Assembly (NCBI GenBank): GCA_951812955.1
Contig: OX638340.1
Location: forward strand, 96,001-160,000
Direction: 5' to 3'
Origin: an uncultured Gemmatimonadota bacterium
GTDB lineage: Bacteria; JAAXHH01
DNA: 64,000 nt
Notes under the pieces: generated by a model
Told to the model about the DNA's origin: nothing
What the model saw: only the letters and a program-made list of their open reading frames with translations
Database searches by the model: none
Program-made: the position numbers and the translations under genes
Part shown: positions 13,575 to 30,235 of the stretch, piece after piece
Layout of the letters: every line of letters starts with the position of its first letter
How positions within the stretch are numbered: the first letter of the stretch is position 1

Positions 13575-15221
13575 ATGGCGGAAAACACCGTAGAAGTCCT
13601 GATGATCGAAGACAACCCCGTGCACGTGCAGTTGATCCGCCATTTCATGGATTCCAGCCGGTTGAAGACCCGGCTTCACGTGGCGGGGACGCTCCGGGAA
13701 GGCCTGGACCTGCTCGGGAAGGAAACATTCGACGTGGTGCTGCTCGATCTGGTCCTGCCCGACAGCGCCGACCTCGACACCCTACACAGCGTTCGGTCCG
13801 CCGAACCGGACCTGCCGGTCATTATTCTGACCGGACTGGACGACGTGTCCCTGGCCGCCACGGCCGTGGAGTCAGGCGCACAGGACTACATCGTGAAGAC
13901 CCAGGCCAATACCACCATGCTCTCCCGGTCCATCCATTATGCTATCGAACGCGTACGTGCGCGCATGGGGGAATGGGATTCGGCCATGTTCAAACTGGCG
14001 CAGCAGCAGTTTCTGAAGGCGGCGCAGATCATGGGGCTCGACGAGAACATCCGGGAGCGGCTCCTCTTCCCCCAGCGGACCCACATCGTGACGCTCCCGT
14101 TCCGGCGTGACGAATATCACCTCGTGGAGAACGTATTCGGATACCGCGTGCAACACCTGCTCACCATGGGGCCGACCAAGGGCGGCATACGCTACCACGA
14201 GGACGTGAACCTGGGGGAGGTCTCCGCCCTGGCCATGTGGATGACGTGGAAATGCGCGCTGATCAACCTGCCCTTCGGCGGCGCCAAGGGCGGCGTCCGG
14301 ATCGATCCGACCGACCTGTCCCGCCGCGAACTGCAGCGCCTCACCCGCCGTTTCACGTCGGAAATCATCGACATCATCGGACCGGACAAGGACATCCCTG
14401 CTCCCGACATGGGCACGGACGAGCAAGTCATGGCCTGGATCATGGACACCTACAGCCAGCAGGCGGGTTACACGGTACCGGGCGTGGTCACCGGCAAGCC
14501 GGTCGTGCTGGGCGGCTCCCTGGGACGCCGCGAGGCGACCGGACGCGGACTGGTCTACCTGATCGAGGCGGCAGCGGAACACATGGGCATGTCCCTCGAC
14601 GGCGCCGCGGCCGTGGTCCAGGGATTCGGCAATGTCGGCAGCAATACTGCCCGTTTCCTGGATGAGGACGGCGTCAAGGTGGTCGCCGTGAGCGACGTCA
14701 CCACCGGCATCTACAATCCGAACGGCCTGGTGTTGGCGGACGTCTATAAGTACTGCGGGGAAAACCGCTTCCTCACGGGCTATCCCGAGGCCGACGAGGT
14801 AACCAACGAAGAACTGCTCGAGCTGCCCTGCGACATCCTCGCCCCGGCCGCGCTGCAGAACCAGGTCACCAGCGAAAATGCAGACCGGCTGAAGTGCAGA
14901 CTCCTCGCCGAAGGGGCCAACGGGCCCACCACGCTCGAGGCGGACGAGATTCTCACGGAAAAGGACGTGTTCATCCTGCCGGACGTCCTGGGCAACGCCG
15001 GGGGCGTTACGGTCTCCTACTTCGAGTGGGTGCAGGATACACAAAACTACATGTGGACACTCGAGGAGATCAACGGCAGGCTGCACAATATCCTCATCGA
15101 CGCTTTTGAACGGACCATACACCGGGCTTCCGAGCAGAAGATCGATATGCGTACATCGGCACTGATAGAAGGTATCAGCCGGGTGACCCAGGCGAAACTG
15201 CTTCGGGGCATATTTCCGTAA
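13575..15221 (+). CDS. fusion protein: N-terminal response-regulator receiver (REC) domain plus a complete Glu/Leu/Phe/Val (glutamate) dehydrogenase
   Basis: The REC domain (aa ~5-125) has [21 protein letters not shown] (phospho-acceptor Asp), VIILTG and QDYIVK (conserved Lys). The GDH part has [23 protein letters not shown] (catalytic Lys box) and the QGFGNVG dinucleotide-binding motif. Confidence 0.85.
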
Positions 15222-15252: not shown

Positions 15253-18216
15253 ATGGATTCGACGGAGATTGATGCGACGTGGGTGAGGATTCTTCAGAAA
15301 ACCGCGTACCTCTGCAGCGGGATCGTCATATCGTGCTCCGTGCTCGTACTTATCGGCTGGCAATTAGATATCGCCGAGCTGCGGGGACTGATCAACCCGG
15401 GCCGGGTTCCCATGAACCCGCTCACGGCCGTGGTCTTTTTGCTGGCGGGGTTTACACTGTGCGCCCTGTTGCCGAGAAACGCCCCTTCCCAACGGAGATG
15501 GGCGGGCTTTGCCGGGGCGGGGCTGCTCATGGCCTTCGGCGCCGCCAAGCTCTTCGGACTGGACATCGGCGGCAGGGGCATCGACGAGTGGCTGTTCACG
15601 GCGTCCCTGGGCGGCAGCCGGATGGCCCCACACACCGCCTTTACCTTCATGCTTGTGGGCCTGGCCCTCCTGCTCCTCGACCTGCGCGGCCCAAGACACT
15701 GGCTGTCCCACGTCTGCGTCATGAACGCCGGGATCATCGCCCTCCTTTCTCTGGCCGGCGCGATATACAGCACGATGGTATTATACCGGGTTTCCGGCGT
15801 GATCCCCATCAGCCTGAATACGGCACTGGGCTTCGGCGTGCTGTGCGTCGGCATATTCTGCGCGCGTCCCCGCCGTGAACCGGCGGCCACGCTGGTCAGC
15901 GCAACGGCCGGCGGTATTATGGCCCGCCGCCTGCTGCCCGCGGCCTTCCTCATTCCCATCATCCTGGGCTGGCTCCAGTTCCAGGGAGAAAGAGCGGGAT
16001 TCTATGGGGTGGAGTTCGGCCATTCGATCTTCGTGGTCTGCAACGTGATCGCCTTCAACATCCTGATCTGGTGGAACGCCCGTTCGATCGGTCAGATCGA
16101 CGCGGAACGCACGCGGATCGCCCACGAACTGCATCGCCAAAACGCCCTCCTGGAAAAGACGGCCCACGACATGGTGCTGTTTCAACAGGAACTCCAGGAA
16201 GCCAAGGAGTCGGCCGAGGAAGCCAGCAGGGCCAAAAGCGAGTTTCTCGCCAACATGAGTCACGAGATCCGCACGCCCATCAACGGGATCACCGGCATGA
16301 CCCAATTGATGCTGAACAGCGACCTGTCGCCCAGGCAACGGGAATTCATGCGGTTGATCGATCAGTCCACGGAATCGCTACAGGGCCTGTTAAACGATAT
16401 CCTGGACTTCTCGAAGATCGAGGCGGGCCGACTGGAGCTCGAATCGATCCCCTTCGAATTGCGGGAGCGCATCGCCAATACGGTGCAGGCCATGTCGATC
16501 CCCGCGTCGGAAAAGGGCCTCGAACTGGCCTACCAGGTATCGCCGGACGTCCCCGATCACCTCGTGGGCGACCCGGGCCGTTTGAGCCAGATTGTGATCA
16601 ACCTGGTCGGGAACGCCATCAAGTTCACGGACTCGGGAGAAGTGGTCCTGACCATGGGGCTGGAATCGGAAACGGAAGAAGCCGTGTCGCTGGTCTGCTC
16701 GGTGGCCGACACCGGAATTGGCATCCCGGAGGACAAGCAGCAACTGATCTTCGACGTCTTCAGCCAGGCGGATAGTTCCATGTCTCGGAAATACGGAGGC
16801 ACGGGGTTGGGACTGGCCATCTGCGCGCAGCTGACATCCATGATGGACGGCCGCATATGGGTCGAAAGCGATGTGGAGCGGGGCAGCACGTTTCATTTTA
16901 CCTTCGGCATGAAGAAACAACTCGACGCGGAGAAGAAGGCCGTGTTGGACGCCGAGCCGCTGTCCGGCCTGCGGGTGCTCGTGGTCGACGACCATTCCAC
17001 CAACCGGCGGTTCCTGGTCGACATGCTGACCGAATGGTCCATGAAACCGACGGAAGCCGGCACCGGCGTGGAAACCCTGGCCGCCCTTTCCGGCGATGAT
17101 GGCGATGCCATTCAACTGGTCCTCCTGGACGAAACCATGCCGGAAATGGAGGAATACGGGCTTGTGCGGGAAATCAACCAGTGCGCAGATGGCCGGAGGC
17201 TCGGCGTCATCCTGCTCGTCTCCGCCGGTCAAAGGGAGGATCCGGATAACGGCAAGACTTTCGGAATCGCCTGTACGGTCAGCAAGCCGGTCAAGCAGTC
17301 CGACCTGCTGGACGCCATCATGGATACCGTGGCGGGCACGCGCGAACCCTCAATTGCAAAACACGCCGACGGCGCGGTTGAAGGGCTCGTTCCCCGCCGT
17401 ATCCTCCTGGCCGAGGACGGGATCGTGAACCAGCGCGTCGCGGTGCTCATGCTGGAGTCCAGGGGCCACGCGGTCACCGTGGTGAACAATGGCAGGGAAG
17501 CGGTCGAAGCGTACAAGAACGGGACCTTCGACCTGATCCTGATGGACGTGCAGATGCCCGAGATGGATGGACTGGAAGCGACCCGGACGATTCGCGGCCT
17601 GGAAACCGGAGACGCCCGCACCCCCATCATTGCGATGACGGCCCACGCCATGCGTGGAGATCGAGAGCGGTGCCTTGAAGCCGGGATGGACGAATACCTG
17701 TCGAAACCCATTCAGGCCCAACTGCTCTACTCCGTGGTGGATAACGTTCCGGTTGAGACCAGGGAGGAATCCGGTGATTCCGCTTCCGAGGCGGCACAGG
17801 GTGAGGTCCTGCCTACCGTGGCGGAAGCCGCGCCTTCTGCGCCGCCGGGGGATCCGGCGGCGATCGACTGGGTAAAGGCCGTAGCGCAATTTGACGGAGA
17901 CGAGCAGGTGGCATCGGAACTGGCCGAGCTTTTCCTGACCGAATGCCAGGGGCTTGAAGCCGGTATGCGCGAAGCGCTCGATGCCCGGAATGGCGCCGAC
18001 CTGAGACGGCATGCCCATACATTGAAAGGTTCAGCCGGGATATTCAAGGCACAGGCTGCCGTGTCCGCTGCACAGCGACTTGAAAAGATGGGCAAAGCCG
18101 GGGATTTTACCGGGGCGGAGGAGGCATGGACGGCGCTGGCCGTCGAACTGGACCGGGTGAAGGCGGTCCTCCGGGAACGGGTTGCCGAGGCGAAACAGCA
18201 ATCTGGTCTCGCTTAG
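15253..18216 (+). CDS. hybrid sensor histidine kinase: ~8-TM N-terminal sensor, coiled coil, HisKA, HATPase_c, two REC domains and a C-terminal HPt
   Basis: The H-box is [12 protein letters not shown] and the G-boxes are GNAIKFT and [12 protein letters not shown]1 has VLVVDDH...LVLLDETMP and REC2 has ILLAEDG...[13 protein letters not shown]. The HPt histidine is in [10 protein letters not shown]. Confidence 0.85.
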
Positions 18217-18325
18217 TACTGAGCCGCTTCCTGCGCGATGCCGCGCATTGCCCCGCCTCCTGATTACTGTCGTGCCGCTTCCTGCGCGATGCCGCGTTCC
18301 TGCGCTTCCTCAGCGGTTTAATGCC

Positions 18326-20020
18326 CTACGTTTGCTTTCCGTAGCGCTCCAGATACCTGTTTTCCGCTTCGATCGTCCCGATTAGAAGGATCTCGCACCC
18401 GGTGGCCAGTTTCATCGACGGAGGGGGACTCACGATACTCTCTTTGCCGGTGAAAACGGCCGTGATGTAACAGCCTGTCTCCGGGTAGATCTGAGAATCG
18501 GCGATGGTCTTGCCGGCGAGTTCTCTGGGAAGCCTGACCCGGAAGAAGTTCAACCCTTCCGTGATCATGACGATGTCGTTTCGCTTGAGCAGGTTCAGGA
18601 TGATGTTGGCGCCCATGGAAGCGTAGGACATGACGAAGTCGGCCCCCGCCCGGTGAAGCGCTTCCACGTTCCGTTCCTGTTTCGCCCGCGTGATGATCTG
18701 GATATCCGGCCGCAGCTTGCGGCAATATATCGTGAGATAGATGTTCATGTCGTCTTCATGGGACGTGATGATGACGGTCGGCGCATCCATGAGGCCGGCC
18801 TTCTTCATCGTCTCGATATCCGCGGCGTCACCCAGTACATAGTGTTTTTCGTTCCGGATCCGGTCGGGCTGCTGCTCGATGATCCGGTAGTCCAGCCCTC
18901 GCTCCACGAGCGTGCCGCCCGCCGAGCGTCCCACGCGTCCTCCGCCGATGATGACGATCGGCGGATCGGAAACGTTGTAGATGGCGAAAAGTTCATTATA
19001 GGAGATGATCTGGCTTTCCGTGCCCATGAGCACCAGGATCATCCGTTCGGTCAGCGGCGTGTCGGGCGCGATCACGCGGAACCTGCCCCGCTCCCATACA
19101 CCGACGACCGTGACGCCGGTCAGTTCGCGCAGACGCGTTTCGCGCAGGGTCTTTCCGATGAGAGGGGTATCCACGATACTCGCGTCGGCTACCATAAGAT
19201 CTTCGACGTTTCCGAGTACGTGAGACATGGAATCCACGCTCGAAGCGAGCCGTGCGAGGAGCTGCCCCATCTGCTGCCCCAGCTGGATCACGTGGGTGCA
19301 GCCCGCCAGTTCGAGGATATCCACGGAGTCGGGTGAGTTCGCCGTGGCCAGGATGGGGATGTCTTTATTGGTATTCCGGATCGTGAAGGCAATGCTGGTG
19401 TTCAGGGTATCCTTTCCCGTGGCGACGACGAGTGCGGCCTGGTCCACGTTCGCGTGCCGGTAGGTCTCCGGGTTGTCCAGGTCGCCGTACACGACATTCA
19501 GCCCCCTGTCGTGCAGGATCAGCGATTCATCCAGTTCGGGAATGATGAATACGTATTCGTTTCCGTATTGCTTGAGCCTGGAAGCGAGGGCGCTCGTCAC
19601 CTCGTCGTAATTCGTGATGACCACGTGATCTCGGAAAGTCGGATCCAGCGTGCGCGGCGCACGGGCGATGGAATGCGCGCTGAGCCAGGGGCGATAGATA
19701 AACTCCACGAAGGCGACGGGAAGAACGATGATGAGTGTAGTCAATCCGGTCAGCAGGACGCACATGGAAAAGACGCGGCCCAGGTCGCTGGTGAATATGA
19801 CATCGCCGTACCCGAGCGTGGTCATCGTGGTCAGCGTCCAGTAAAATCCGGTGAACCACGTATGATCCCGTCCTTCCATGGCCTGAAGCTCGTGAAAGAG
19901 GACGGTGTAGACCAGCATCAACAGGAAGAGGAAGATGAAAAACCGATAGAAGAACTTCAGGTTTCCCGATCCGATCGTGGTGCGCAACACACCCAGGTAC
20001 TGTCTGTAGAAGGTCTGCAT
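18326..20020 (-). CDS. 2-TM potassium channel with two RCK (TrkA-N/TrkA-C) regulatory domains (MthK/Kch-like)
   Basis: The selectivity filter TTLGYGD sits between two TM helices. Two Rossmann RCK_N domains (one with IIGGGRVG) are each followed by a TrkA_C domain. Confidence 0.85.
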   Translation of the reverse strand: MQTFYRQYLGVLRTTIGSGNLKFFYRFFIFLFLLMLVYTVLFHELQAMEGRDHTWFTGFYWTLTTMTTLGYGDVIFTSDLGRVFSMCVLLTGLTTLIIVLPVAFVEFIYRPWLSAHSIARAPRTLDPTFRDHVVITNYDEVTSALASRLKQYGNEYVFIIPELDESLILHDRGLNVVYGDLDNPETYRHANVDQAALVVATGKDTLNTSIAFTIRNTNKDIPILATANSPDSVDILELAGCTHVIQLGQQMGQLLARLASSVDSMSHVLGNVEDLMVADASIVDTPLIGKTLRETRLRELTGVTVVGVWERGRFRVIAPDTPLTERMILVLMGTESQIISYNELFAIYNVSDPPIVIIGGGRVGRSAGGTLVERGLDYRIIEQQPDRIRNEKHYVLGDAADIETMKKAGLMDAPTVIITSHEDDMNIYLTIYCRKLRPDIQIITRAKQERNVEALHRAGADFVMSYASMGANIILNLLKRNDIVMITEGLNFFRVRLPRELAGKTIADSQIYPETGCYITAVFTGKESIVSPPPSMKLATGCEILLIGTIEAENRYLERYGKQT

Positions 20021-20261
20021 GGTTAATTCGGGTTTAATGGTTATGGTTCACGTCGAGACGCGATGGCTCCTGCCCGCATCGCGCGTCGGCACCAAGAGCT
20101 ACCAGTCTAAATCCATCCTTGCCCACTGTCAAGCCCGCACGGGAAGCCCGTGGTCGAATTGCCTTGAGCCGTTACCGCATACCGCGTCGAGCCCGAAACC
20201 GGGTTGCCGCGTCTTTTTCTCCTTGCTCCACTACATACTGTTCCTGTAATCTGCCAGATGA

Positions 20262-20480
20262 ATACAGCGGCCTGCCCCGGCCCGCTCGGTTCGCCCGGCT
20301 CGTTCAGTCCTGCCGGCTCGCTCGGTTCACCCGGCTCGTCCGGCCCGCCTGGCTCGTTCAGTCCTGCCGGCTCGTCCGGCCCGCCCGGCCCGCCCGGCCC
20401 GCCCGGTTCGCTCGGATCGTTCGGTCCGGCTCGGTTCGTCCGGCCTGCACGGTTCGGTCGGCCCGCTCAGTCCGGCCGGG
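20262..20480. repeat. GC-rich degenerate minisatellite in the 540-bp divergent intergenic region
   Basis: The sequence ctcgttcagtcctgccggctcg occurs twice, at about 20309 and 20353. It is followed by (CCGGCCCG)x4 and further ggctcg/ggttcg variants. Confidence 0.6.
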
Positions 20481-20559
20481 TACCGGACGGTTCGGCCGCG
20501 TCACGGACGTCGTAAGGCATGTTTCATTCTCTCATTTCTAATGAACGGAAGCGTGGACC

Positions 20560-21930
20560 ATGAACAACGTCATATCCTATCTCGAGTCCCAACGATCCCA
20601 GGCACTTGACGGCTTGAAGGAGTTCCTCCGCATTCCGAGTGTGAGCACCCATCCCCACCACCGCGAGGACCTGCACCGGTGCGCCAGGTTCGTCGCCGGC
20701 GAACTGGAAGGGATCGGCATGCGCAACGTAGCGGTGAACCCAACGCCCGGCCATCCCATTGTGACGGCGGACTGGCTGGATGCGCCCGGTAAGCCCACCG
20801 TGCTCCTGTACGGCCATTACGACGTCCAGCCGGCGGAACCCATCGAGTTGTGGGAGAGTGATCCCTTTGATCCCGTGGTTCGGGGCGACAACCTGTATGC
20901 TCGCGGATCGACGGACGACAAGGGACAGGTGTGGGTCCACGTGAAGGCCCTGGAAGCCCACCTGCGGGAAAACGGCCGCCTCCCGGTGAACGTCCGCATG
21001 CTGATCGAGGGGGAGGAGGAAGTGTCGAGCGAGAACCTGGAAGCCTACCTGGAGGCCCATAAAGCCGAGCTGGCGGCGGACGTGGTGGTCATTTCCGACA
21101 CGTCCATGCTGGACTACGAGCGGCCCTCCATCGGTTATGCGTTACGCGGCATGGCCTACATGGAGATCCGGATCGAGGGGCCCAATAAGGACCTGCATTC
21201 GGGAGTCTACGGCGGCGCAGTGCCCAACCCCCTCAACGTCCTCTCCGAGATGCTGGGCAAGATGGTGGACCGTGACGGAAGGATCACCGTACCCGGGTTC
21301 TACGATGATGTCTTGCCCTTGAGAGACGAAGAGCGGGAATCACTTGCCGCGCTTTCCTTCGATGAGGAGGGATTCGCCGGAAAGCTGGGCCTGCCGCATG
21401 CCACGGGCGAAAAGGGATACTCGACCGTGGAACGCCTCTGGGCGCGGCCCACGCTGGATGTGAACGGGATGCTTGGGGGATTCACGGGCGAAGGGTCGAA
21501 GACCGTGATTCCTTCGAAGGCCATGGCCAAGGTGAGCATGCGCCTCGTGCCGGACCAGGACCCCGAAAAGATCGTACGGACCTTCACGGACTACGTAAAA
21601 TGCCTTGCGCCACCCTCGGTCAAGGTGGAAGTCATCTGCCACGGCACGGGGAAGCCGGTCCTCACGGCGCGGGATCATCCCGCGGTTACAGCCGCGCACA
21701 AGGCCATCGCCAGGGGCTTCGGCAAGGAACCCGTGTACATCCGGGAAGGCGGCAGCATCCCGGTAGTTGCCATGTTCGAGGAGAAACTCGGCCTTCCGAC
21801 CGTCCTGATGGCCTTCGGCCTGCCAGACTGCGACGCCCATGCGCCGAACGAGAAGTTCCACTTGCCCAATTTCTACCGGGGAATCGACAGCGCGGCCTGG
21901 TTCTACGAGGAATATGGCCGGGTCCGATGA
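20560..21930 (+). CDS. M20-family metallopeptidase (dipeptidase / ArgE-DapE-like)
   Basis: 456 aa with LLYGHYDVQP, GSTDDKG and MLIEGEEE (metal-ligand motifs) and a dimerisation/lid domain. Confidence 0.8.
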   Translation: MNNVISYLESQRSQALDGLKEFLRIPSVSTHPHHREDLHRCARFVAGELEGIGMRNVAVNPTPGHPIVTADWLDAPGKPTVLLYGHYDVQPAEPIELWESDPFDPVVRGDNLYARGSTDDKGQVWVHVKALEAHLRENGRLPVNVRMLIEGEEEVSSENLEAYLEAHKAELAADVVVISDTSMLDYERPSIGYALRGMAYMEIRIEGPNKDLHSGVYGGAVPNPLNVLSEMLGKMVDRDGRITVPGFYDDVLPLRDEERESLAALSFDEEGFAGKLGLPHATGEKGYSTVERLWARPTLDVNGMLGGFTGEGSKTVIPSKAMAKVSMRLVPDQDPEKIVRTFTDYVKCLAPPSVKVEVICHGTGKPVLTARDHPAVTAAHKAIARGFGKEPVYIREGGSIPVVAMFEEKLGLPTVLMAFGLPDCDAHAPNEKFHLPNFYRGIDSAAWFYEEYGRVR

Positions 21931-22084
21931 CCCGGTTACCGCTATGGGCATCGGGTCCGGTCTTTATCTAATCCACCTACAGTCTTCTGGATTTATGGGG
22001 ATGATTCGGCGCGATTTTGCGTGGTGTCTCGACCCGGCAGTCTATGCGTCTGGTCCCGGCGGCTAATGCGTCTGGTCCGAAACG

Positions 22085-23398
22085 CTAAGCTGACTGTCCG
22101 GCCCTTCCTGCGGCGGCCCGTTGCTCCATGGCGTTCACGGAAGTTGCCACGGCGGCGTCGCCCGTGACGTTTACCGCGGTTCGGCACATGTCGAGTATGC
22201 GGTCGACGCCGAGGATCAATGCGATGCCTGCGGCCGGTACGCCGATGGTCTCGAGGATGATGATCAGCATGATGATGCCCGCGCCGGGTACCGCGGCGGT
22301 GCCGATAGACGCGAGTACTGCCGTGAGGACGATCTGCAGCTGCGCCGTCATATCAAGACCCAGGCCAAGAGCCTGGGCGATGAACACGGCGGCAACGGCC
22401 TGGTAGAGTGCGGTGCCGTCCATGTTGATCGTGGCGCCGAGAGGCAGAACGAAGGAGGAGACCTCCTTGGAGACCCCGAGATTCCGCTCGCTCATCTCCA
22501 TCGTGACGGGCAGCGTGGCCCCGCTGGAACTCGAGGAGAAAGCCAGGAGTTGGGCCGGTGCGATCCCCCTGAAGAAGCGTCCGATCTTCATGTTGGAGAA
22601 GATTTTCAGCAGAAGCGGATAGGTGACGATGCCGTGGACCAGCAGCCCCAGGAGGACTACCAGGCAGTAAAAGCCAAGGGCCCCAAGGAGTTCTCCGACA
22701 GCTGACAGGTCGTCTCTGGCCACCTGGTTGATGGTCTTGGCGATCAGCGCAAATACCCCGATGGGGGCGACGACCATGATCATGTGCACGATCTGGATGA
22801 TGACCGACGTGAGCCCTCCGAAGAAATCAACCAGGGGTTTGCCCTTGTCGGACGGGATCAGTACCAGGGCGATGCCGAAGAGGATGGAGAAGAAAACGAC
22901 CTGAAGCATGCGACCGTTGTTGCTCAGGGCACCGAAGATGTTGTCTGGTGTCATGTCCACGAAGACCTGTAGCGGACCGCGATCTCTGGCCGTTTCGGCC
23001 CGCTCCATGTCCGATTCCGCATCGGACTGGTAGGCCGCCTGCAACTGTTCCTGCAGCCCCTGGGGCACACCGGTACCGGGTTCGAGCAGGTTGACCATGA
23101 CAAGTCCGATGGTCACGGAGACGGTCGTTGTGAGGATGTAAATGGCGATCGTCCTTCCCCCGATGCGCGATAACTTCTTCACGTCCGAGAGGGAAGCGAT
23201 GCCCATGATGAGCGAGCCCAGCACGAGGGGTACGGCGATGACCTTGAGCAGGTTGAGGAAGATGTCGCCGAAGGGCGTGATCCAGTCCTCTGTGAATTGG
23301 CTCCAGCCCATGGCCGCGGAAAGGATTCCGTACAGCCCTCCGAGGATCAGGCCGATGATGATTTTCCAGTGCAGGGGGAGGCGCCACAGGTTCATCAT
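22085..23398 (-). CDS. dicarboxylate/amino acid:cation symporter (DAACS family, GltP/GltT-like)
   Basis: 437 aa, multi-pass, with the characteristic segments FAFSSSSSGATLPVTME and PLGATINMDGTALY. Confidence 0.8.
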   Translation of the reverse strand: MMNLWRLPLHWKIIIGLILGGLYGILSAAMGWSQFTEDWITPFGDIFLNLLKVIAVPLVLGSLIMGIASLSDVKKLSRIGGRTIAIYILTTTVSVTIGLVMVNLLEPGTGVPQGLQEQLQAAYQSDAESDMERAETARDRGPLQVFVDMTPDNIFGALSNNGRMLQVVFFSILFGIALVLIPSDKGKPLVDFFGGLTSVIIQIVHMIMVVAPIGVFALIAKTINQVARDDLSAVGELLGALGFYCLVVLLGLLVHGIVTYPLLLKIFSNMKIGRFFRGIAPAQLLAFSSSSSGATLPVTMEMSERNLGVSKEVSSFVLPLGATINMDGTALYQAVAAVFIAQALGLGLDMTAQLQIVLTAVLASIGTAAVPGAGIIMLIIILETIGVPAAGIALILGVDRILDMCRTAVNVTGDAAVATSVNAMEQRAAAGRAGQSA

Positions 23399-23443
23399 GT
23401 AAGGTCTCTCCGGGGTATATACAGACGAGTATTTGCGGACAGG

Positions 23444-24445
23444 CTATACGGGAACGTCGTGGAACAGACTCTGGACTGTCCGAACCAATTTCTCTTCGTC
23501 TGGAATGGTTTCAGGTTCCAGGCCAGGGCTGAAGGGTACGGGTACGTCCATGGCGCCCAGCCGTTTGACGGGGGCGTCGAGGTAATCGAAGGCCTCGTCG
23601 GAAATCCTGGAGGCCAGTTCACCGGTAACTCCGTAGCTCTGGTAGGCTTCGTCGATCACTACGGCGCGGCTGGTCTTCTGCACGGATCGCACAATGGTTT
23701 CCATGTCCAGAGGGGACAGCGTCCTGGGGTCGACCACTTCGACGCTGATCTGTTCCTGCTCCAGCATGTCCGCAGCCTTAAGCGCGGTATGCACCATGCT
23801 CGAAGTGGCCACGATGGACACGTCGCTTCCTTCCCGTTTTATGTCGGCCACACCGAAGGGGATGGTATAGTCGTCGTCATCCGGAACCGGACCCTTCAAG
23901 GCGTACATCATCTTGTCCTCATAGATCACGGTGGGGTTATCGTCGCGAATGGCGGTTTTGAGCAGTCCCTTCAAATCGGCCGGCGTGGAAGGGATGGCCA
24001 CCTTGACGCCGGGTATGTGAGACAGCCAGGCCTGCAGGCTTTGGGAGTGCTGGGCCGCCGAGGAGCGGCCCGCCCCGATGGTGGTCCGTATGGTTAGCGG
24101 CACGCTGGCCTGTCCGCCGGTCATGTAGCACATCTTGGCCGCCTGGTTGACGATCTGGTCCATGGCGATGGTGATGAAGTCGCCGAACATGATCTCGACG
24201 ATGGGCCGCATGCCCGTCAGGGCCGCGCCTACGCCCGCTCCCATGATGCCCGCTTCCGAGATGGGCGTGTCCCGCACCCGGTCGTCGCCGAATTCGTCGA
24301 GCAGTCCCACGGTGACCTTGAAGACTCCGCCGGCCGCGGCGACGTCCTCGCCCATGAAGAAGACGGTTTCGTCCCGCCGCATCTCCTCCGCAATGGCCTC
24401 TCGGACCGCTTCCCCGTAAGTGATTACGCGTTCAGGCGTAGACAT
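23444..24445 (-). CDS. 2-oxoacid (pyruvate/acetoin-type) dehydrogenase E1 component beta subunit
   Basis: 333 aa with a transketolase-like pyrimidine-binding domain (DTPISEAGIMGAGVGAAL) and a C-terminal domain. Confidence 0.85.
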   Translation of the reverse strand: MSTPERVITYGEAVREAIAEEMRRDETVFFMGEDVAAAGGVFKVTVGLLDEFGDDRVRDTPISEAGIMGAGVGAALTGMRPIVEIMFGDFITIAMDQIVNQAAKMCYMTGGQASVPLTIRTTIGAGRSSAAQHSQSLQAWLSHIPGVKVAIPSTPADLKGLLKTAIRDDNPTVIYEDKMMYALKGPVPDDDDYTIPFGVADIKREGSDVSIVATSSMVHTALKAADMLEQEQISVEVVDPRTLSPLDMETIVRSVQKTSRAVVIDEAYQSYGVTGELASRISDEAFDYLDAPVKRLGAMDVPVPFSPGLEPETIPDEEKLVRTVQSLFHDVPV

Positions 24446-25472
24446 GATCGGTCACCTCGTCGGCCACGGGATAGGGGGACTCCTTCGCGAATTCCACGGC
24501 GTCTTCCACCAGCCCGGTGATGGTGGCGTCGATGGTATCCAGTTCCGTTTCGTCCACCATGCCCGCCTTCATCATGCGCCGGGCGAAGCGTGGTATGGGG
24601 TCGCGGGCGAGCCAGGTGTCGGTCTCCTCCTGGGTCCGGTAGGTCTTCTCCGGATCGCCGTCGCCCACGTGATGGCCCCGGTACCGGTAGGTCTTGTTCT
24701 CGATCAGGCAGGGGCCTTCGCCGGCACGGGCCCGCTTTACCATCTCCATCGCGGTCTGGTGTACCGCAACCGCGTCGTTACCGTCCACTACCACGGCCGG
24801 CATGTCGAATCCCGCGGCACGCTCGGCCACGTGTTCCCGGACGGCCGTAACGTCACTGGCCGCGGTGTATTCTCCGTAATGGTTGTTCTCGCAGACGAAT
24901 AGCACGGGCAACGACCAGACGGACGCCAGGTTGGCGGATTCCAGAAAGGCACCCTGGTTGATGGCGCCGTCGCCGAAGAAGCACACGGCCACCTGCCCGC
25001 TGTTGCGCATCTTGCCGCTCAGGGCCGCGCCGGTCGCCATGCCCATCCCGCCTCCCACGATCCCGTTGGCGCCGAGAATCCCGAGACTCATGTCGGCGAT
25101 GTGCATGGTTCCGCCCTTCCCCCGGTTGTAGCCGTCCACCTTGCCCATCATCTCGGCCATCATGCGGTCGACCTTGCCGCCCTTGGCGATCAGGTGGCCG
25201 TGGCCCCGGTGGGTACTGGTCAGGTAGTCGTCGTCGTTCAGAGCGGAACAGATGCCCACTGCCGAGGCCTCCTGCCCGATGTAGAGGTGGGCGAGGCCGC
25301 GCATCAGCCCCTGCGTGTAAATCTCCAGCACGGCTTCCTCGAACCGCCGTATGGTCAGCATTTTTTCGTAGATTTCCCTGCTCAGCGATTCGTTCAGCGG
25401 CAACGTCCCTTCGTCACTGGACGTGGTGATTATTTCCAGGGATTCCGTCATGTCTCGAACGCTCCATGGCAA
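24432..25472 (-). CDS. 2-oxoacid dehydrogenase E1 component alpha subunit (TPP-dependent)
   Basis: 346 aa with the TPP motif GDGAINQGAFLESANLA...NN. It overlaps the beta subunit by 14 bp. Confidence 0.85.
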   Translation of the reverse strand: MPWSVRDMTESLEIITTSSDEGTLPLNESLSREIYEKMLTIRRFEEAVLEIYTQGLMRGLAHLYIGQEASAVGICSALNDDDYLTSTHRGHGHLIAKGGKVDRMMAEMMGKVDGYNRGKGGTMHIADMSLGILGANGIVGGGMGMATGAALSGKMRNSGQVAVCFFGDGAINQGAFLESANLASVWSLPVLFVCENNHYGEYTAASDVTAVREHVAERAAGFDMPAVVVDGNDAVAVHQTAMEMVKRARAGEGPCLIENKTYRYRGHHVGDGDPEKTYRTQEETDTWLARDPIPRFARRMMKAGMVDETELDTIDATITGLVEDAVEFAKESPYPVADEVTDHVYA

Positions 25473-25617
25473 AGAGGCGAAACCGGTGGTATAGCCAAAA
25501 ATTCGGTACGAACGAACTGTCCCATAATACGGGAGGGCGGCAGGTCAGGCAAGAGGAAAATACCCGTGCGAACCTATGGTTCATTTCGTTCGTTAACGCC
25601 GGCTCTCGCGCGTTCGT

Positions 25618-26178
25618 TCAGCCGGTTCGATCCGGCGCGAGACTCCGGTTGAGCCGCTGAATCAGCGGCGGGGCGAAGAGAATCATCAGGATGGTCTCGG
25701 GGACGACGACACTTGCGTTGTACAACAGGGCGTAAAGCCATGGCGCCGTCCATTGCTGGAGCAGGGGCGCAAGGGTGATTCCGGTGTAATCCCGGATCAG
25801 TTCGTATACCTGCCGGTTCAGTTCGGGCGGGGTAAAGGCCGCAAAATACACCGCGCCGGACACTACGTGGCTCGCCAGCCGGAGTATGCAGGCCACCGTG
25901 ATCCCCAGCCGGGGCCAGCCGGGGAAGTACCCTATGATCCCCAGCATGGCATAGGGAAGAAGGTAATCCAGCGCGACCTGGATTGGGTGCAGGACGACGG
26001 GATCGATGATCAGCGTGACGAGACCTGCGGCGAGCCCTCCGGCCATGCCCGCCCTGGGTCCGTGCGAGATCGACAGGTAGATCAGAGGAAGGATCTTGAG
26101 CGACAGCGATCCGCCCCAGGGCAGCCGGTACAGGCGGATGAAACCGAGGAGGACCGCGAGGGCAACCGCCACGGCCAT
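25618..26178 (-). CDS. ThiT/YuaJ-like membrane protein (putative thiamine-transporter S component)
   Basis: Pattern similarity to ThiT: LKILPLIYLSISHGPRAGMAGGLAAGLVTLI against ThiT [28 protein letters not shown]. It has about 6 TM helices. The start was set at an internal Met to avoid overlapping the upstream gene. Confidence 0.5.
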   Translation of the reverse strand: MAVAVALAVLLGFIRLYRLPWGGSLSLKILPLIYLSISHGPRAGMAGGLAAGLVTLIIDPVVLHPIQVALDYLLPYAMLGIIGYFPGWPRLGITVACILRLASHVVSGAVYFAAFTPPELNRQVYELIRDYTGITLAPLLQQWTAPWLYALLYNASVVVPETILMILFAPPLIQRLNRSLAPDRTG

Positions 26179-26206
26179 TGCGGTCAGTCGGCGCGTGCCG
26201 CCGGCG

Positions 26207-26869
26207 CTACTTGCCGTTTGTGGATTCGCTTTCTTCGGGCTCGGGCTTGCCATGTCCGTTCATTTCGGCCAGGCGCTTCATCTTTTCCTGCTTGTCCAAC
26301 TTCCCCATCGTCTCGAGGAGCGCCGTGTCGAGTTTCCTTATCCGTGCGGTGGTCGAAGTCAGCTCCAGCAGGGACTGCCGCTCCCGCAGGACCATGTCGA
26401 TCGTCGACGCGATGATGAAGGAGAAGTGCACCGGGTCGAAGATGCCGCGGACGGCGCCCACCCCCCTGGTCTGCAGTCGTATCATTTTCTGGTAGGCATC
26501 CAGGACCTTCTTCAGGAGGTCGGATGGGATGTCCTCGCTGTCGTCGTCGAAGTATTCGACTGCGGCTTCCAGGTAGGACTCCCGGTTGAGCACGTCGAGG
26601 ACCCGGAACCGCCTGCGTCCCTCGGTGAGTATGTCCATGTTCCCGTTTTCGAACTGCCTGAGGATCTGCGTGATCCGGGCCGTGCAGCCCACCTGGCACA
26701 ACTGGGTTTCATGCAGGAGCAGAATGCCGAATTCCAGTTTCTCATCGAGGCATTTTTGAACCATTTCCTTGTAGCGCGGTTCGAAAATGTGAAGGTGCAG
26801 GGGCATGCCGGGAAAAAGTACGGTATTGAGCGGGAAGAGCGGGATCTCGGGTGAGTTCATAGAGTTCAT
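26207..26869 (-). CDS. Lon N-terminal (LON substrate-binding) domain protein, stand-alone
   Basis: 220 aa beginning IPLFPLNTVLFPGMPLHLHIFEPRYKEMV, typical of the Lon N domain, with no ATPase or protease part. Confidence 0.7.
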   Translation of the reverse strand: MNSMNSPEIPLFPLNTVLFPGMPLHLHIFEPRYKEMVQKCLDEKLEFGILLLHETQLCQVGCTARITQILRQFENGNMDILTEGRRRFRVLDVLNRESYLEAAVEYFDDDSEDIPSDLLKKVLDAYQKMIRLQTRGVGAVRGIFDPVHFSFIIASTIDMVLRERQSLLELTSTTARIRKLDTALLETMGKLDKQEKMKRLAEMNGHGKPEPEESESTNGK

Positions 26870-30163: not shown

Positions 30164-30235
30164 CTCCGGGGCCAGGATTCGAACCTGGATAGCCAGAACC
30201 AAAATCTGGTGTCCTGCCAATTGAACGACCCCGGA
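30164..30235 (-). tRNA. tRNA-Gln (anticodon UUG); CCA not encoded
   Basis: Manual fold: acceptor TCCGGGG/CCCCGGA, D-arm GTTC-AATTGGCA-GGAC, anticodon stem CCAGA/TCTGG with loop TTTTGGT, T-arm CCAGG-TTCGAAT-CCTGG. Confidence 0.85.

What the first reader, a model, noticed from the sequence alone, without database searches (positions are those of the whole stretch)
18326..23398. Genes for K+ flux, glutamate uptake and peptide cleavage cluster around the phosphorylatable GDH: a possible K+/glutamate osmoadaptation island
Directly next to the REC-GDH/HK locus lie three genes. The first is a TTLGYGD-filter K+ channel with two RCK domains, converging on the HK. The second is an M20 dipeptidase. The third is a DAACS-family (glutamate/aspartate-type) symporter. 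K+ and glutamate are the paired primary osmolytes in many bacteria, and GDH sets the glutamate pool. Co-location of a gated K+ channel, a glutamate carrier and a signal-controlled GDH could be a coordinated turgor or nitrogen-status module. This is a neighbourhood inference only.
Basis: inference. Interest (0 to 1): 0.5.

Follow-up and report, generated by a model that had tools for sequence, protein, structure and literature searches.

The report
Three ordinary neighbours of a kinase-controlled GDH
The potassium channel, dipeptidase and glutamate/aspartate carrier are really there, but they are three separately transcribed genes whose closeness to the signal-controlled glutamate dehydrogenase is kept only within one marine bacterial clade (channel and dipeptidase) or only in the nearest relatives (carrier), so a coordinated potassium/glutamate "island" is at most weakly supported.

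Summary
Window 18326-23398 encodes a GsuK-type dual-RCK K+ channel (-), a CNDP2/Dug1-type M20 dipeptidase (+) and a GltPh/GltP-type acidic-amino-acid symporter (-), beside a REC-GDH and its hybrid histidine kinase.

The "island" reading is only partly supported.
- **Transcription:** the three genes are convergent or divergent, so they are three separate units. No riboswitch and no shared upstream motif was found.
- **Symporter:** it travels with the downstream E1alpha-E1beta genes. It touches M20 only in the window's own sub-lineage. In sister lineages it is 5 kb away or absent.
- **Channel and dipeptidase:** they stay beside the kinase in every lineage examined of one marine clade labelled Gemmatimonadota, down to 58% channel identity. 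An unrelated epimerase and a DUF3078 gene persist almost as well, which fits slowly decaying synteny.
- **Outside the clade:** 14 REC-GDH loci from other lineages keep at most the kinase/Hpt partner. 70 loci with GsuK-like channels at 43-52% identity have no GDH, kinase, M20 or symporter nearby; many sit beside TrkH/TrkA instead.

The only cross-lineage module is the phosphorelay kinase plus REC-GDH. A clade-specific link between channel and GDH remains possible but untested.

The parts
13575..15221 (+). REC-GDH: receiver domain fused to a hexameric-type glutamate dehydrogenase.
   Evidence: Pfam Response_reg, ELFV_dehydrog_N and ELFV_dehydrog. At least 120 homologues with the same three domains. 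E12, D13, D58 and K108 are invariant.
15253..18216 (+). Hybrid histidine kinase: membrane sensor domain of about 8 TM segments (residues 1-290, no Pfam family), then HisKA, HATPase, REC, REC and Hpt. It is the phosphorelay partner of REC-GDH.
   Evidence: A kinase or Hpt partner lies next to REC-GDH in 10 of the 14 loci outside the clade.
18326..20020 (-). GsuK-type K+ channel: 2-TM pore with TTLGYGD filter and two tandem RCK domains. The RCK2 nucleotide motif G359-G-G-R-V-G364...E382 is kept.
   Evidence: Ligand residues of GsuK were taken from PMC3510474.
20104..20132 (-). Sigma-70-like promoter (TTGACA, 17 nt, TAGACT) upstream of the channel gene. It is conserved in L002 and L082 but not in more distant clade members.
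20276..20468 (.). GC-rich tandem repeat (18-nt period, about 190 bp) in the channel-M20 intergenic region. It varies between strains.
   Evidence: It is absent from L001, L002 and L094.
20560..21930 (+). M20 dipeptidase of the CNDP2/Dug1/carnosinase type.
   Evidence: PRK08201, 596.7 bits against a cut-off of 441. CNDP2 2zof, E 4e-84.
22085..23398 (-). SDF/DAACS symporter of the GltPh/GltP acidic-amino-acid type. It is probably the last gene of the E1alpha-E1beta unit.
   Evidence: It lies 45 bp from E1beta on the same strand. It stays with E1beta/E1alpha in L098-L100 while separated from M20.
23444..25472 (-). PDH-type E1beta (23444-24445) and E1alpha (24432-25472), upstream of the symporter on the same strand.

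Best explanation
The stretch holds three correctly identified, separately transcribed genes. Each most likely does its family's ordinary job.
- The GsuK-type channel passes K+ under the control of cytoplasmic nucleotides bound to its RCK ring.
- The CNDP2/Dug1-type M20 enzyme hydrolyses dipeptides.
- The GltPh/GltP-type carrier imports aspartate or glutamate, probably as the last gene of the E1alpha-E1beta unit.

They are not one module. The symporter became M20's neighbour only in the window's own sub-lineage. Sister lineages have an epimerase (plus two ABC genes) at that position.

The channel and dipeptidase have sat beside the REC-GDH/kinase pair throughout one marine clade whose close relatives are labelled Gemmatimonadota. 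Unrelated genes persist there almost as well, which is the pattern of slowly decaying synteny rather than a selected gene cluster.

The only unit conserved across lineages is the phosphorelay: membrane sensor kinase, internal REC, Hpt, then the REC domain of the GDH.

Shown: gene identities, orientations and the synteny pattern. Inferred: the biochemical roles (from family membership), and the lack of functional coupling (from the lack of conservation outside the clade).
For: Identities.

Separate units: the gene pairs HK/channel and M20/DAACS are convergent, and channel/M20 is divergent. The channel has its own promoter-like site. No Rfam element was found. No 14-mer is shared among the upstream regions beyond shuffled controls.

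The symporter is not part of the block. L098-L100 keep E1a-E1b-DAACS together but about 5 kb from M20. L084 and L096/97 have no DAACS in the locus.

Residual-synteny signature: an epimerase orthologue (71-75% identity) follows M20 in L084, L086, L096-L100 and L175. A DUF3078 orthologue precedes REC-GDH in L084, L096/97 and L175.

Outside the clade, 14 REC-GDH loci have no channel, TrkA/H or SDF gene. Only one has an M20, and it is a distant paralogue at 25% identity. These loci are labelled Sinorhizobium, Halomonas, Microbulbifer, Bremerella, Gimesia-type, Myxococcales, another Gemmatimonadota MAG and Latescibacteria.

Four of those loci (L006, L089, L090, L091) carry the same 8-TM kinase sensor domain (E 1e-44 to 1e-65) without any adjacent channel.

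70 loci with GsuK-like channels at 43-52% identity have no REC-GDH, kinase, M20 or DAACS within the available flanks. 17 of them have the full 10 kb on both sides. 16 of the 70 lie next to TrkH and 14 next to TrkA.

The region shows no compositional anomaly.
Against: Within the clade the HK|channel junction is kept in all five other lineages examined. That is as often as the functional GDH|HK junction. It is more often than HisA|GDH (3 of 5) or M20|DAACS (2 of 5).

Channel and M20 are still together in L084, where the flanks on both sides differ from the window's.

The theme is coherent. K+ and glutamate are paired osmolytes. GsuK is opened by NAD+ but not NADH (PMC3510474), and NAD(P)+/NAD(P)H is the cofactor pair of GDH. 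One distant REC-GDH locus has an MscS channel two genes away (L174), and another has a different M20 directly upstream (L088).

Absence of local linkage in other lineages does not exclude a functional link in this one. No expression data were available.
Confidence: 0.6

Rival explanations
1. There is a clade-specific four-gene K+/glutamate unit made of REC-GDH, its membrane kinase, the GsuK-type channel and possibly the dipeptidase. These cooperate in this marine clade only. For example, the kinase might read membrane or K+ status, perhaps using the channel as a co-sensor, and switch GDH so that the glutamate counter-ion pool follows K+ flux. Alternatively, the NAD+/NADH shift made by GDH might feed back on the NAD+-gated channel.
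For: The HK|channel and channel|M20 neighbourhood is kept in all clade lineages, down to 58% channel, 52% kinase and 65% M20 identity. This includes L084, whose flanks differ from the window's. The convergent HK/channel gap is tight, from 0 to 109 bp. The kinase sensor is purely membrane-embedded, with about 8 TM segments and no periplasmic domain. GsuK is activated by NAD+ and ADP (PMC3510474), and the RCK2 nucleotide motif is kept.
Against: An epimerase and a DUF3078 gene with no thematic link are retained almost as well. The same sensor-kinase/REC-GDH pair exists in four other lineages with no adjacent channel. Channel homologues elsewhere never sit near a GDH or kinase. The genes are not co-transcribed and no common operator was found. 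The upstream region of the channel is not conserved across the clade.
Confidence: 0.22
2. One reading: channel, dipeptidase, DAACS carrier, kinase and REC-GDH together form one coordinated K+/glutamate osmoadaptation or nitrogen-status island.
For: All five genes are adjacent in the window and in its closest relatives L002, L082/L095 and L094. The carrier has the acidic-amino-acid binding-site residues.
Against: The carrier is tied to E1beta/E1alpha: a 45-bp gap on the same strand, and the three travel together in L098-L100. It is 5 kb away or absent in sister lineages, where an epimerase occupies its place. Its adjacency is therefore a recent, sub-lineage-specific juxtaposition. There are three transcription units with no shared motif.
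Confidence: 0.06
3. The grouping reflects a peptide and amino-acid catabolism theme without K+. The dipeptidase and the Asp/Glu carrier would supply glutamate to a catabolic, signal-gated GDH, with the 2-oxoacid dehydrogenase E1 genes nearby. The channel would be an unrelated neighbour.
For: In the window, M20, the carrier, the GDH and the E1 genes are all amino-acid or 2-oxoacid related. A different M20 hydrolase lies directly upstream of REC-GDH in L088. Amidohydrolases or peptidases occur near REC-GDH in L090 and L173.
Against: The L088 M20 is only 25% identical, so it is a different subfamily. Most distant REC-GDH loci have no peptidase or carrier. The carrier's adjacency is recent. Within the clade the channel is retained at least as well as M20.
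Confidence: 0.12

Closest known systems
GsuK, the dual-RCK multi-ligand-gated K+ channel of Geobacter sulfurreducens (PDB 4GX0/4GX5; Kong et al. 2012, PMC3510474)
   Same: The length (564 vs 565 aa) and architecture match: a 2-TM pore followed by RCK1 and RCK2. The alignment is colinear over residues 18-555 (E about 1e-108). A K+ selectivity filter is present. The RCK2 GxGxxG...acidic nucleotide motif is kept (G359-G364, E382).
   Different: The Zn site (His359, Cys364, Cys388, His391) is replaced by G360, R365, R389 and K392. Only 2 of the 6 Ca2+-site residues are identical: T183, N210, T214, E449, N450, Q453 correspond to D182, S209, T213, R450, N451, A454. Inhibition by Ca2+ therefore cannot be assumed. 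The ligands of this protein are untested.
CNDP2 / Dug1p / carnosinase group of M20 metallodipeptidases (PDB 2zof, 4g1p, 3dlj); NCBIfam PRK08201 'dipeptidase'
   Same: The match is full-length (E 4e-84 to CNDP2). It has a catalytic plus dimerisation domain layout. It scores above the NCBIfam equivalog cut-off. The motifs GHxDVQP, TDDKG, EGEEE and the C-terminal DAH are aligned.
   Different: The substrate (Cys-Gly, X-His, general dipeptides, or a carboxypeptidase activity like Sso-CP2) cannot be read from sequence.
GltPh/GltTk/GltP aspartate-glutamate symporters (SLC1/DAACS family)
   Same: SDF domain at 417 bits. The best solved matches are an aspartate transporter (9bgz, E 7e-99) and GltPh (E about 1e-79). 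The motif D399-R-I-L-D403-M-C-R406-T-A-V-N410-V-T-G-D414 keeps the residues that in GltPh are D394, R397, N401 and D405 (GltPh numbering recalled from my own knowledge).
   Different: It scores below the NCBIfam cut-offs for GltP (287 vs 638) and DctA (250 vs 513). It has an extra loop of about 30 residues after TM3. The coupling ion and the Asp versus Glu preference are unknown.
K+-glutamate osmoadaptation gene sets (Trk/Ktr/Kdp uptake, MscS/MscL release, glutamate synthesis) and transporter co-sensing by kinases (DctA-DcuS)
   Same: The theme is shared: a K+ pathway and a glutamate-pool enzyme under sensor-kinase control lie next to each other. The kinase sensor is membrane-embedded.
   Different: As far as I know, no described system links a K+ channel to a REC-GDH. 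Here there is no operon and no shared regulator, and the linkage is not conserved outside one clade. In other lineages the homologous channel sits with TrkH/TrkA instead.

Membership tests
GsuK-type dual-RCK K+ channel | 2-TM pore domain with a K+ selectivity filter (T-x-G-Y/F-G-D) | tested here: met
   Ion_trans_2 at E 3.9e-13. TTLGYGD at residues 67-73.
GsuK-type dual-RCK K+ channel | Two tandem RCK domains (TrkA_N plus TrkA_C, twice) in the same chain | tested here: met
   TrkA_N has 2 stretches and TrkA_C has 2 stretches. Colinear with 4GX0 over residues 18-555.
GsuK-type dual-RCK K+ channel | RCK2 Rossmann nucleotide motif GxGxxG...D/E (the ADP/NAD+ site) | tested here: met
   G359-G-G-R-V-G364 and E382 align to the GsuK motif.
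GsuK-type dual-RCK K+ channel | Inhibitory Ca2+ site (T183, N210, T214, E449, N450, Q453) and Zn site (H359, C364, C388, H391) | tested here: not met
   All four Zn-site residues are replaced (G, R, R, K). At the Ca2+ site, 2 of 6 are identical. These are features of GsuK itself rather than of the architecture.
GsuK-type dual-RCK K+ channel | Activation by ADP/NAD+ and K+ conduction | not testable with these tools
   Needs flux assays or electrophysiology.
M20A dipeptidase (CNDP2/Dug1 type; NCBIfam PRK08201) | Score above the curated equivalog cut-off, with catalytic and dimerisation domains | tested here: met
   596.7 bits against a cut-off of 441. Peptidase_M20 and M20_dimer.
M20A dipeptidase (CNDP2/Dug1 type; NCBIfam PRK08201) | Conserved metal-binding and catalytic motifs | tested here: met
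   GHYDVQP, TDDKG, EGEEE, ISD and DAHAPNE align to the same positions of CNDP2. Assigning these motifs as metal ligands rests on my own knowledge of the family.
DAACS/SLC1 acidic-amino-acid symporter (GltPh/GltP type) | SDF fold over the full length | tested here: met
   PF00375 at 417 bits, covering 1-386 of 387 profile positions.
DAACS/SLC1 acidic-amino-acid symporter (GltPh/GltP type) | Substrate-site Asp (binds the alpha-amino group) and Arg (binds the side-chain carboxylate) in TM8 | tested here: met
   DRILDMCRTAVNVTGD aligns to IDRILDMARTTVNVTGD of the aspartate transporter 9bgz. Residue roles are from my own knowledge of GltPh.
DAACS/SLC1 acidic-amino-acid symporter (GltPh/GltP type) | Equivalog-level match to GltP or DctA | tested here: not met
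   GltP 287 bits (cut-off 638). DctA 250 bits (cut-off 513).
Conserved functional gene cluster ('K+/glutamate island') | Gene order conserved in relatives beyond background synteny | tested here: inconclusive
   Channel and M20 are kept in all clade lineages. The unrelated epimerase and DUF3078 genes are kept too. No genome-wide null could be computed.
Conserved functional gene cluster ('K+/glutamate island') | Association recurs in independent lineages that carry the hub gene | tested here: not met
   0 of 14 distant REC-GDH loci have a channel or SDF gene. 0 of 70 distant channel loci have a GDH, HK, M20 or SDF gene.
Conserved functional gene cluster ('K+/glutamate island') | All members are part of the conserved block | tested here: not met
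   The DAACS carrier is adjacent only in the window's sub-lineage. It travels with E1alpha/E1beta.
Conserved functional gene cluster ('K+/glutamate island') | Co-transcription or a shared regulatory element | tested here: not met
   Orientations are convergent or divergent. There is no Rfam hit and no shared motif above shuffled controls.
Conserved functional gene cluster ('K+/glutamate island') | Co-regulation under osmotic or nitrogen shift | not testable with these tools
   Needs expression data.

The most novel reading that the evidence does not exclude
In one marine clade whose close relatives are labelled Gemmatimonadota, a phosphorelay-controlled glutamate dehydrogenase, its 8-TM sensor kinase and an NAD+/ADP-gated GsuK-type K+ channel work as one K+/glutamate homeostasis unit, with the adjacent dipeptidase feeding amino acids. 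Either the kinase would use the channel or K+ flux as its input, or the cofactor turnover of GDH would gate the channel. In this way the cell's main cation and its main counter-anion would be adjusted together at the enzyme level rather than by transcription.
Probability: 0.18. Interest if true: 0.65.

Novelty: new member of a known kind. Interest (0 to 1): 0.25.

Why it matters
If the channel were truly coupled to the REC-GDH relay, it would be the first case of a two-component system balancing K+ and glutamate by acting directly on an enzyme and a channel. It would also give a physiological role to GsuK-type channels, which currently lack one.

As the evidence stands, the finding mainly shows how far a neighbourhood inference can be trusted. 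The only robust, cross-phylum unit is the REC-GDH with its Hpt-containing kinase. That unit is the more interesting object, and it lies outside this finding's coordinates. The three flanking genes are ordinary members of known families.

Tried and rejected
- **Riboswitch or leader RNA** (for example c-di-AMP/ydaO, glutamine) near the channel, M20 or carrier: none at Rfam gathering scores over the window, and none at E<=1 over 17900-23900.
- **Shared operator** among upstream regions: the best 14-mer matches do not exceed shuffled controls. The channel's upstream promoter block is conserved only in L002 and L082.
- **The 140-aa ORF at 20119-20541 (+)** in the intergenic region: no Pfam hit. It overlaps a strain-variable tandem repeat, so I treat it as spurious.
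- **The M20 next to REC-GDH in L088** as an independent recurrence of the same gene: rejected. It is only 25% identical, so it is a different subfamily.
- **Pfam assignment of the kinase sensor domain:** none at E<=1.
- **Literature on REC-GDH fusions, or on a K+ channel linked to GDH:** nothing relevant in four full-text searches. The J Bacteriol 2026 ammonia-sensing paper concerns a DNA-binding regulator.
- **Identity with Gaopeijia maritima:** rejected (70.4% GC and 4.2 Mb, against about 61% GC and 3.8-3.9 Mb).
- **Genome-contig scan with the REC+linker alignment:** most of the 80 loci were generic REC proteins. Only L002-L009 were true REC-GDH.
- **Relocated epimerase or ABC genes elsewhere in the window:** none found.
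- **Numbering caveat:** the queries were cut at the wrong end of minus-strand genes. Residue numbers in those outputs are the true number minus one. The report uses true numbers.


Full report
**What is there**

The window (about 61% GC, no compositional break around the region) carries the following genes from 12.7 to 26.3 kb:
- HisA (+)
- REC-GDH, 13575-15221 (+)
- hybrid histidine kinase, 15253-18216 (+)
- K+ channel, 18326-20020 (-)
- M20 dipeptidase, 20560-21930 (+)
- SDF/DAACS symporter, 22085-23398 (-)
- PDH-type E1beta, 23444-24445 (-), and E1alpha, 24432-25472 (-)
- ThiT/YuaJ thiamine transporter, 25618-26253 (-)

The channel has the filter TTLGYGD (residues 67-73) and two TrkA_N/TrkA_C pairs. 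It aligns over its full length with GsuK of Geobacter sulfurreducens (4GX0/4GX5, E about 1e-108).

The M20 protein passes the NCBIfam 'dipeptidase' equivalog (596.7 bits against 441). It is closest to CNDP2, carnosinase and Dug1 among solved structures.

The symporter is closest to an aspartate transporter (9bgz) and to GltPh/GltTk. It keeps the TM8 Asp/Arg/Asn residues of acidic-amino-acid carriers. It falls below the equivalog cut-offs for GltP and DctA.

**Anatomy**

The three genes are three transcription units.
- The kinase and the channel converge across a 109-bp gap.
- The channel and M20 diverge across 539 bp.
- M20 and the symporter converge across 154 bp.
- The symporter follows E1beta on the same strand after 45 bp, so it is probably the last gene of the E1alpha-E1beta unit.

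A sigma-70-like site (TTGACA, 17 nt, TAGACT; 20132 to 20104, minus strand) precedes the channel. It is conserved in L002 and L082 but not in more distant relatives.

No Rfam family was found in or near the region. No 14-mer is shared between the upstream regions beyond shuffled controls.

REC-GDH is not a DNA-binding regulator, so the relay itself cannot co-regulate its neighbours transcriptionally.

**Gene-order test, anchored on REC-GDH**

REC-GDH is a widespread family. The best 120 homologues, down to 69% identity, all have REC plus GDH domains. They carry labels from Gemmatimonadota, Latescibacteria, Planctomycetes (Gimesia) and Gammaproteobacteria. Proteins 93% identical to the window's are labelled Gemmatimonadota MAGs.

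Closest relatives:
- L002 (GDH 91%, channel 90%) keeps the whole order, including housekeeping flanks from QRPTase to E1beta.
- L082/L083 (GDH 83%, channel 74%) keeps the order from HPPK to ThiT.

This shows general synteny and is not informative about function.

More distant clade members:
- L086 (GDH 80%) has GDH-HK-channel(-)-M20(+) followed by an epimerase and two ABC genes.
- L175 (78%) has DUF3078-GDH-HK-channel-HAD-M20-epimerase.
- L084 (GDH 75%, kinase 52%, channel 58%, M20 65%) has flanks on both sides that differ from the window's. It still has DUF3078-GDH-HK-channel(-)-M20(+)-epimerase.

**Outside the clade**

Fourteen REC-GDH loci were examined: L003-L009, L088-L092, L173 and L174, at 36-74% GDH identity to the window. 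Ten keep a kinase or a REC-Hpt partner next to the GDH. None has a channel, TrkA/H or an SDF carrier.

Only L088 has an M20, and it is 25% identical, so it is a different subfamily.

Four of these loci (L006, L089, L090, L091) have the same 8-TM kinase sensor domain as the window (E 1e-44 to 1e-65). The sensor-relay-GDH unit therefore exists unchanged without a neighbouring channel.

**Gene-order test, anchored on the channel**

A metagenome scan with an alignment of clade channels returned 80 loci. These were compared with the window's proteins by tblastn.

Loci with channels at 65% identity or more belong to the clade. They show M20 and HK/REC-GDH wherever the contig is long enough (L094-L100).
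- In L098-L100 the E1alpha-E1beta-DAACS trio is intact but about 5 kb from M20, separated by two ABC genes and the epimerase.
- In L096/97 no DAACS is present.

The 70 loci with channels at 43-52% identity have no REC-GDH, hybrid kinase, M20 or DAACS homologue in their flanks. Seventeen of them have the full 10 kb on both sides. Their recurrent neighbours are TrkH (16 loci) and TrkA (14 loci), the K+ uptake system.

**Reading the pattern**

The junctions in the five other clade lineages score as follows.

| Junction | Kept |
|---|---|
| GDH\|HK | 5/5 |
| HK\|channel | 5/5 |
| channel\|M20 | 4/5 strictly, 5/5 allowing one inserted gene |
| HisA\|GDH | 3/5 |
| M20\|DAACS | 2/5 |
| DAACS\|E1beta | 3/3 where seen |

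The carrier is therefore not part of the block. Its contact with M20 is a recent juxtaposition in the window's sub-lineage, where the epimerase segment is missing. That segment is also absent from the whole 64-kb window.

The channel and M20 are the most persistent neighbours of the kinase, which leaves room for a clade-specific functional link. However, an NAD-dependent epimerase and a DUF3078 protein, with no thematic connection, are retained in most of the same lineages. The association is also absent in every independent lineage in both directions. The simplest account is slowly decaying synteny around a tightly packed convergent pair.

**How it most likely works**

- **Phosphorelay.** An 8-TM sensor feeds HisKA/HATPase, then the internal REC, then Hpt, then D58 of the REC-GDH. 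This presumably changes GDH activity. It is inferred from domain order, the invariant REC residues and cross-phylum pairing.
- **Channel.** It most likely conducts K+ under control of nucleotides bound at RCK2. The GxGxxG...E motif is kept. GsuK is opened by ADP and NAD+ and closed by Ca2+ (PMC3510474). GsuK's Zn site is lost here and only 2 of 6 Ca2+-site residues are identical, so Ca2+ control is uncertain.
- **M20 enzyme.** It most likely cleaves dipeptides.
- **Carrier.** It most likely imports Asp or Glu, and it is expressed with the E1 genes.

I put 0.6 on these being functionally independent neighbours of the relay. I put about 0.2 on a clade-specific unit of channel (with or without M20), GDH and kinase. 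I put under 0.1 on the full five-gene island.

**Novelty and verdict**

Each gene is a new member of a known family. The proposed island is not supported as a general module, and it is contradicted for the carrier. What remains open, and mildly interesting, is the persistent kinase/channel junction within one uncultured marine clade. The robust and more unusual object is the REC-GDH with its kinase, which lies outside this finding.

Noticed in passing
window 20276-20468: A GC-rich tandem repeat (18-nt period, also readable as 54 nt; about 190 bp) lies in the channel-M20 intergenic region. It is absent from L001, a strain with an identical REC-GDH, and from L002 and L094. It is therefore a strain-variable expansion between two divergent promoters.
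   Followed up: partly
window 15253-16120 (kinase residues 1-290): This is a membrane sensor domain of about 8 TM segments with no Pfam family at E<=1. The same domain (E 1e-44 to 1e-65) is found in the kinases next to REC-GDH in L006, L089, L090 and L091. It looks like an undescribed sensor domain specifically paired with REC-GDH.
   Followed up: partly
L124-L159 (for example L134 11693-13207; L127 10087-11436): GsuK-like channels at 46-50% identity, several from contigs whose names point to saline or soda-lake samples, are followed by convergent TrkH (16 loci) and TrkA (14 loci). In those lineages this forms a K+ channel plus K+ uptake locus.
   Followed up: partly
L174 49-6511: A REC-GDH at 74% identity is followed by a beta-CASP metallo-beta-lactamase RNase, an MscS mechanosensitive channel and a Lon protease. 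This is the only other ion channel seen near a REC-GDH.
   Followed up: no
L088 8624-12452 and 20120-21532: In an 8-Mb genome the REC-GDH has a different M20 hydrolase directly upstream. Downstream there is a stand-alone REC-Hpt protein, 49% identical to the C-terminus of the window's kinase, instead of a full hybrid kinase. A second, plain GDH lies 9 kb away.
   Followed up: partly
L091 11921-13201: A 426-aa protein with Usp and PTS_EIIA_2 domains converges on the kinase, in exactly the position the K+ channel occupies in the window.
   Followed up: no
L084 18315-19394; L086 18400-19473; L096-L100; L175 13677-14393: An NAD-dependent epimerase/dehydratase orthologue (71-75% identity) follows M20 in four clade lineages. 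A DUF3078 orthologue precedes REC-GDH in three. Both are missing from the entire 64-kb window.
   Followed up: yes
window 23444-26253: PDH-type E1alpha and E1beta genes, with no adjacent E2 or E3, lie next to a ThiT/YuaJ thiamine transporter on the same strand. This places a TPP enzyme beside a thiamine importer.
   Followed up: no
window 30164-30235: A single tRNA gene on the minus strand is the only Rfam gathering-score hit in the 64-kb window.
   Followed up: no
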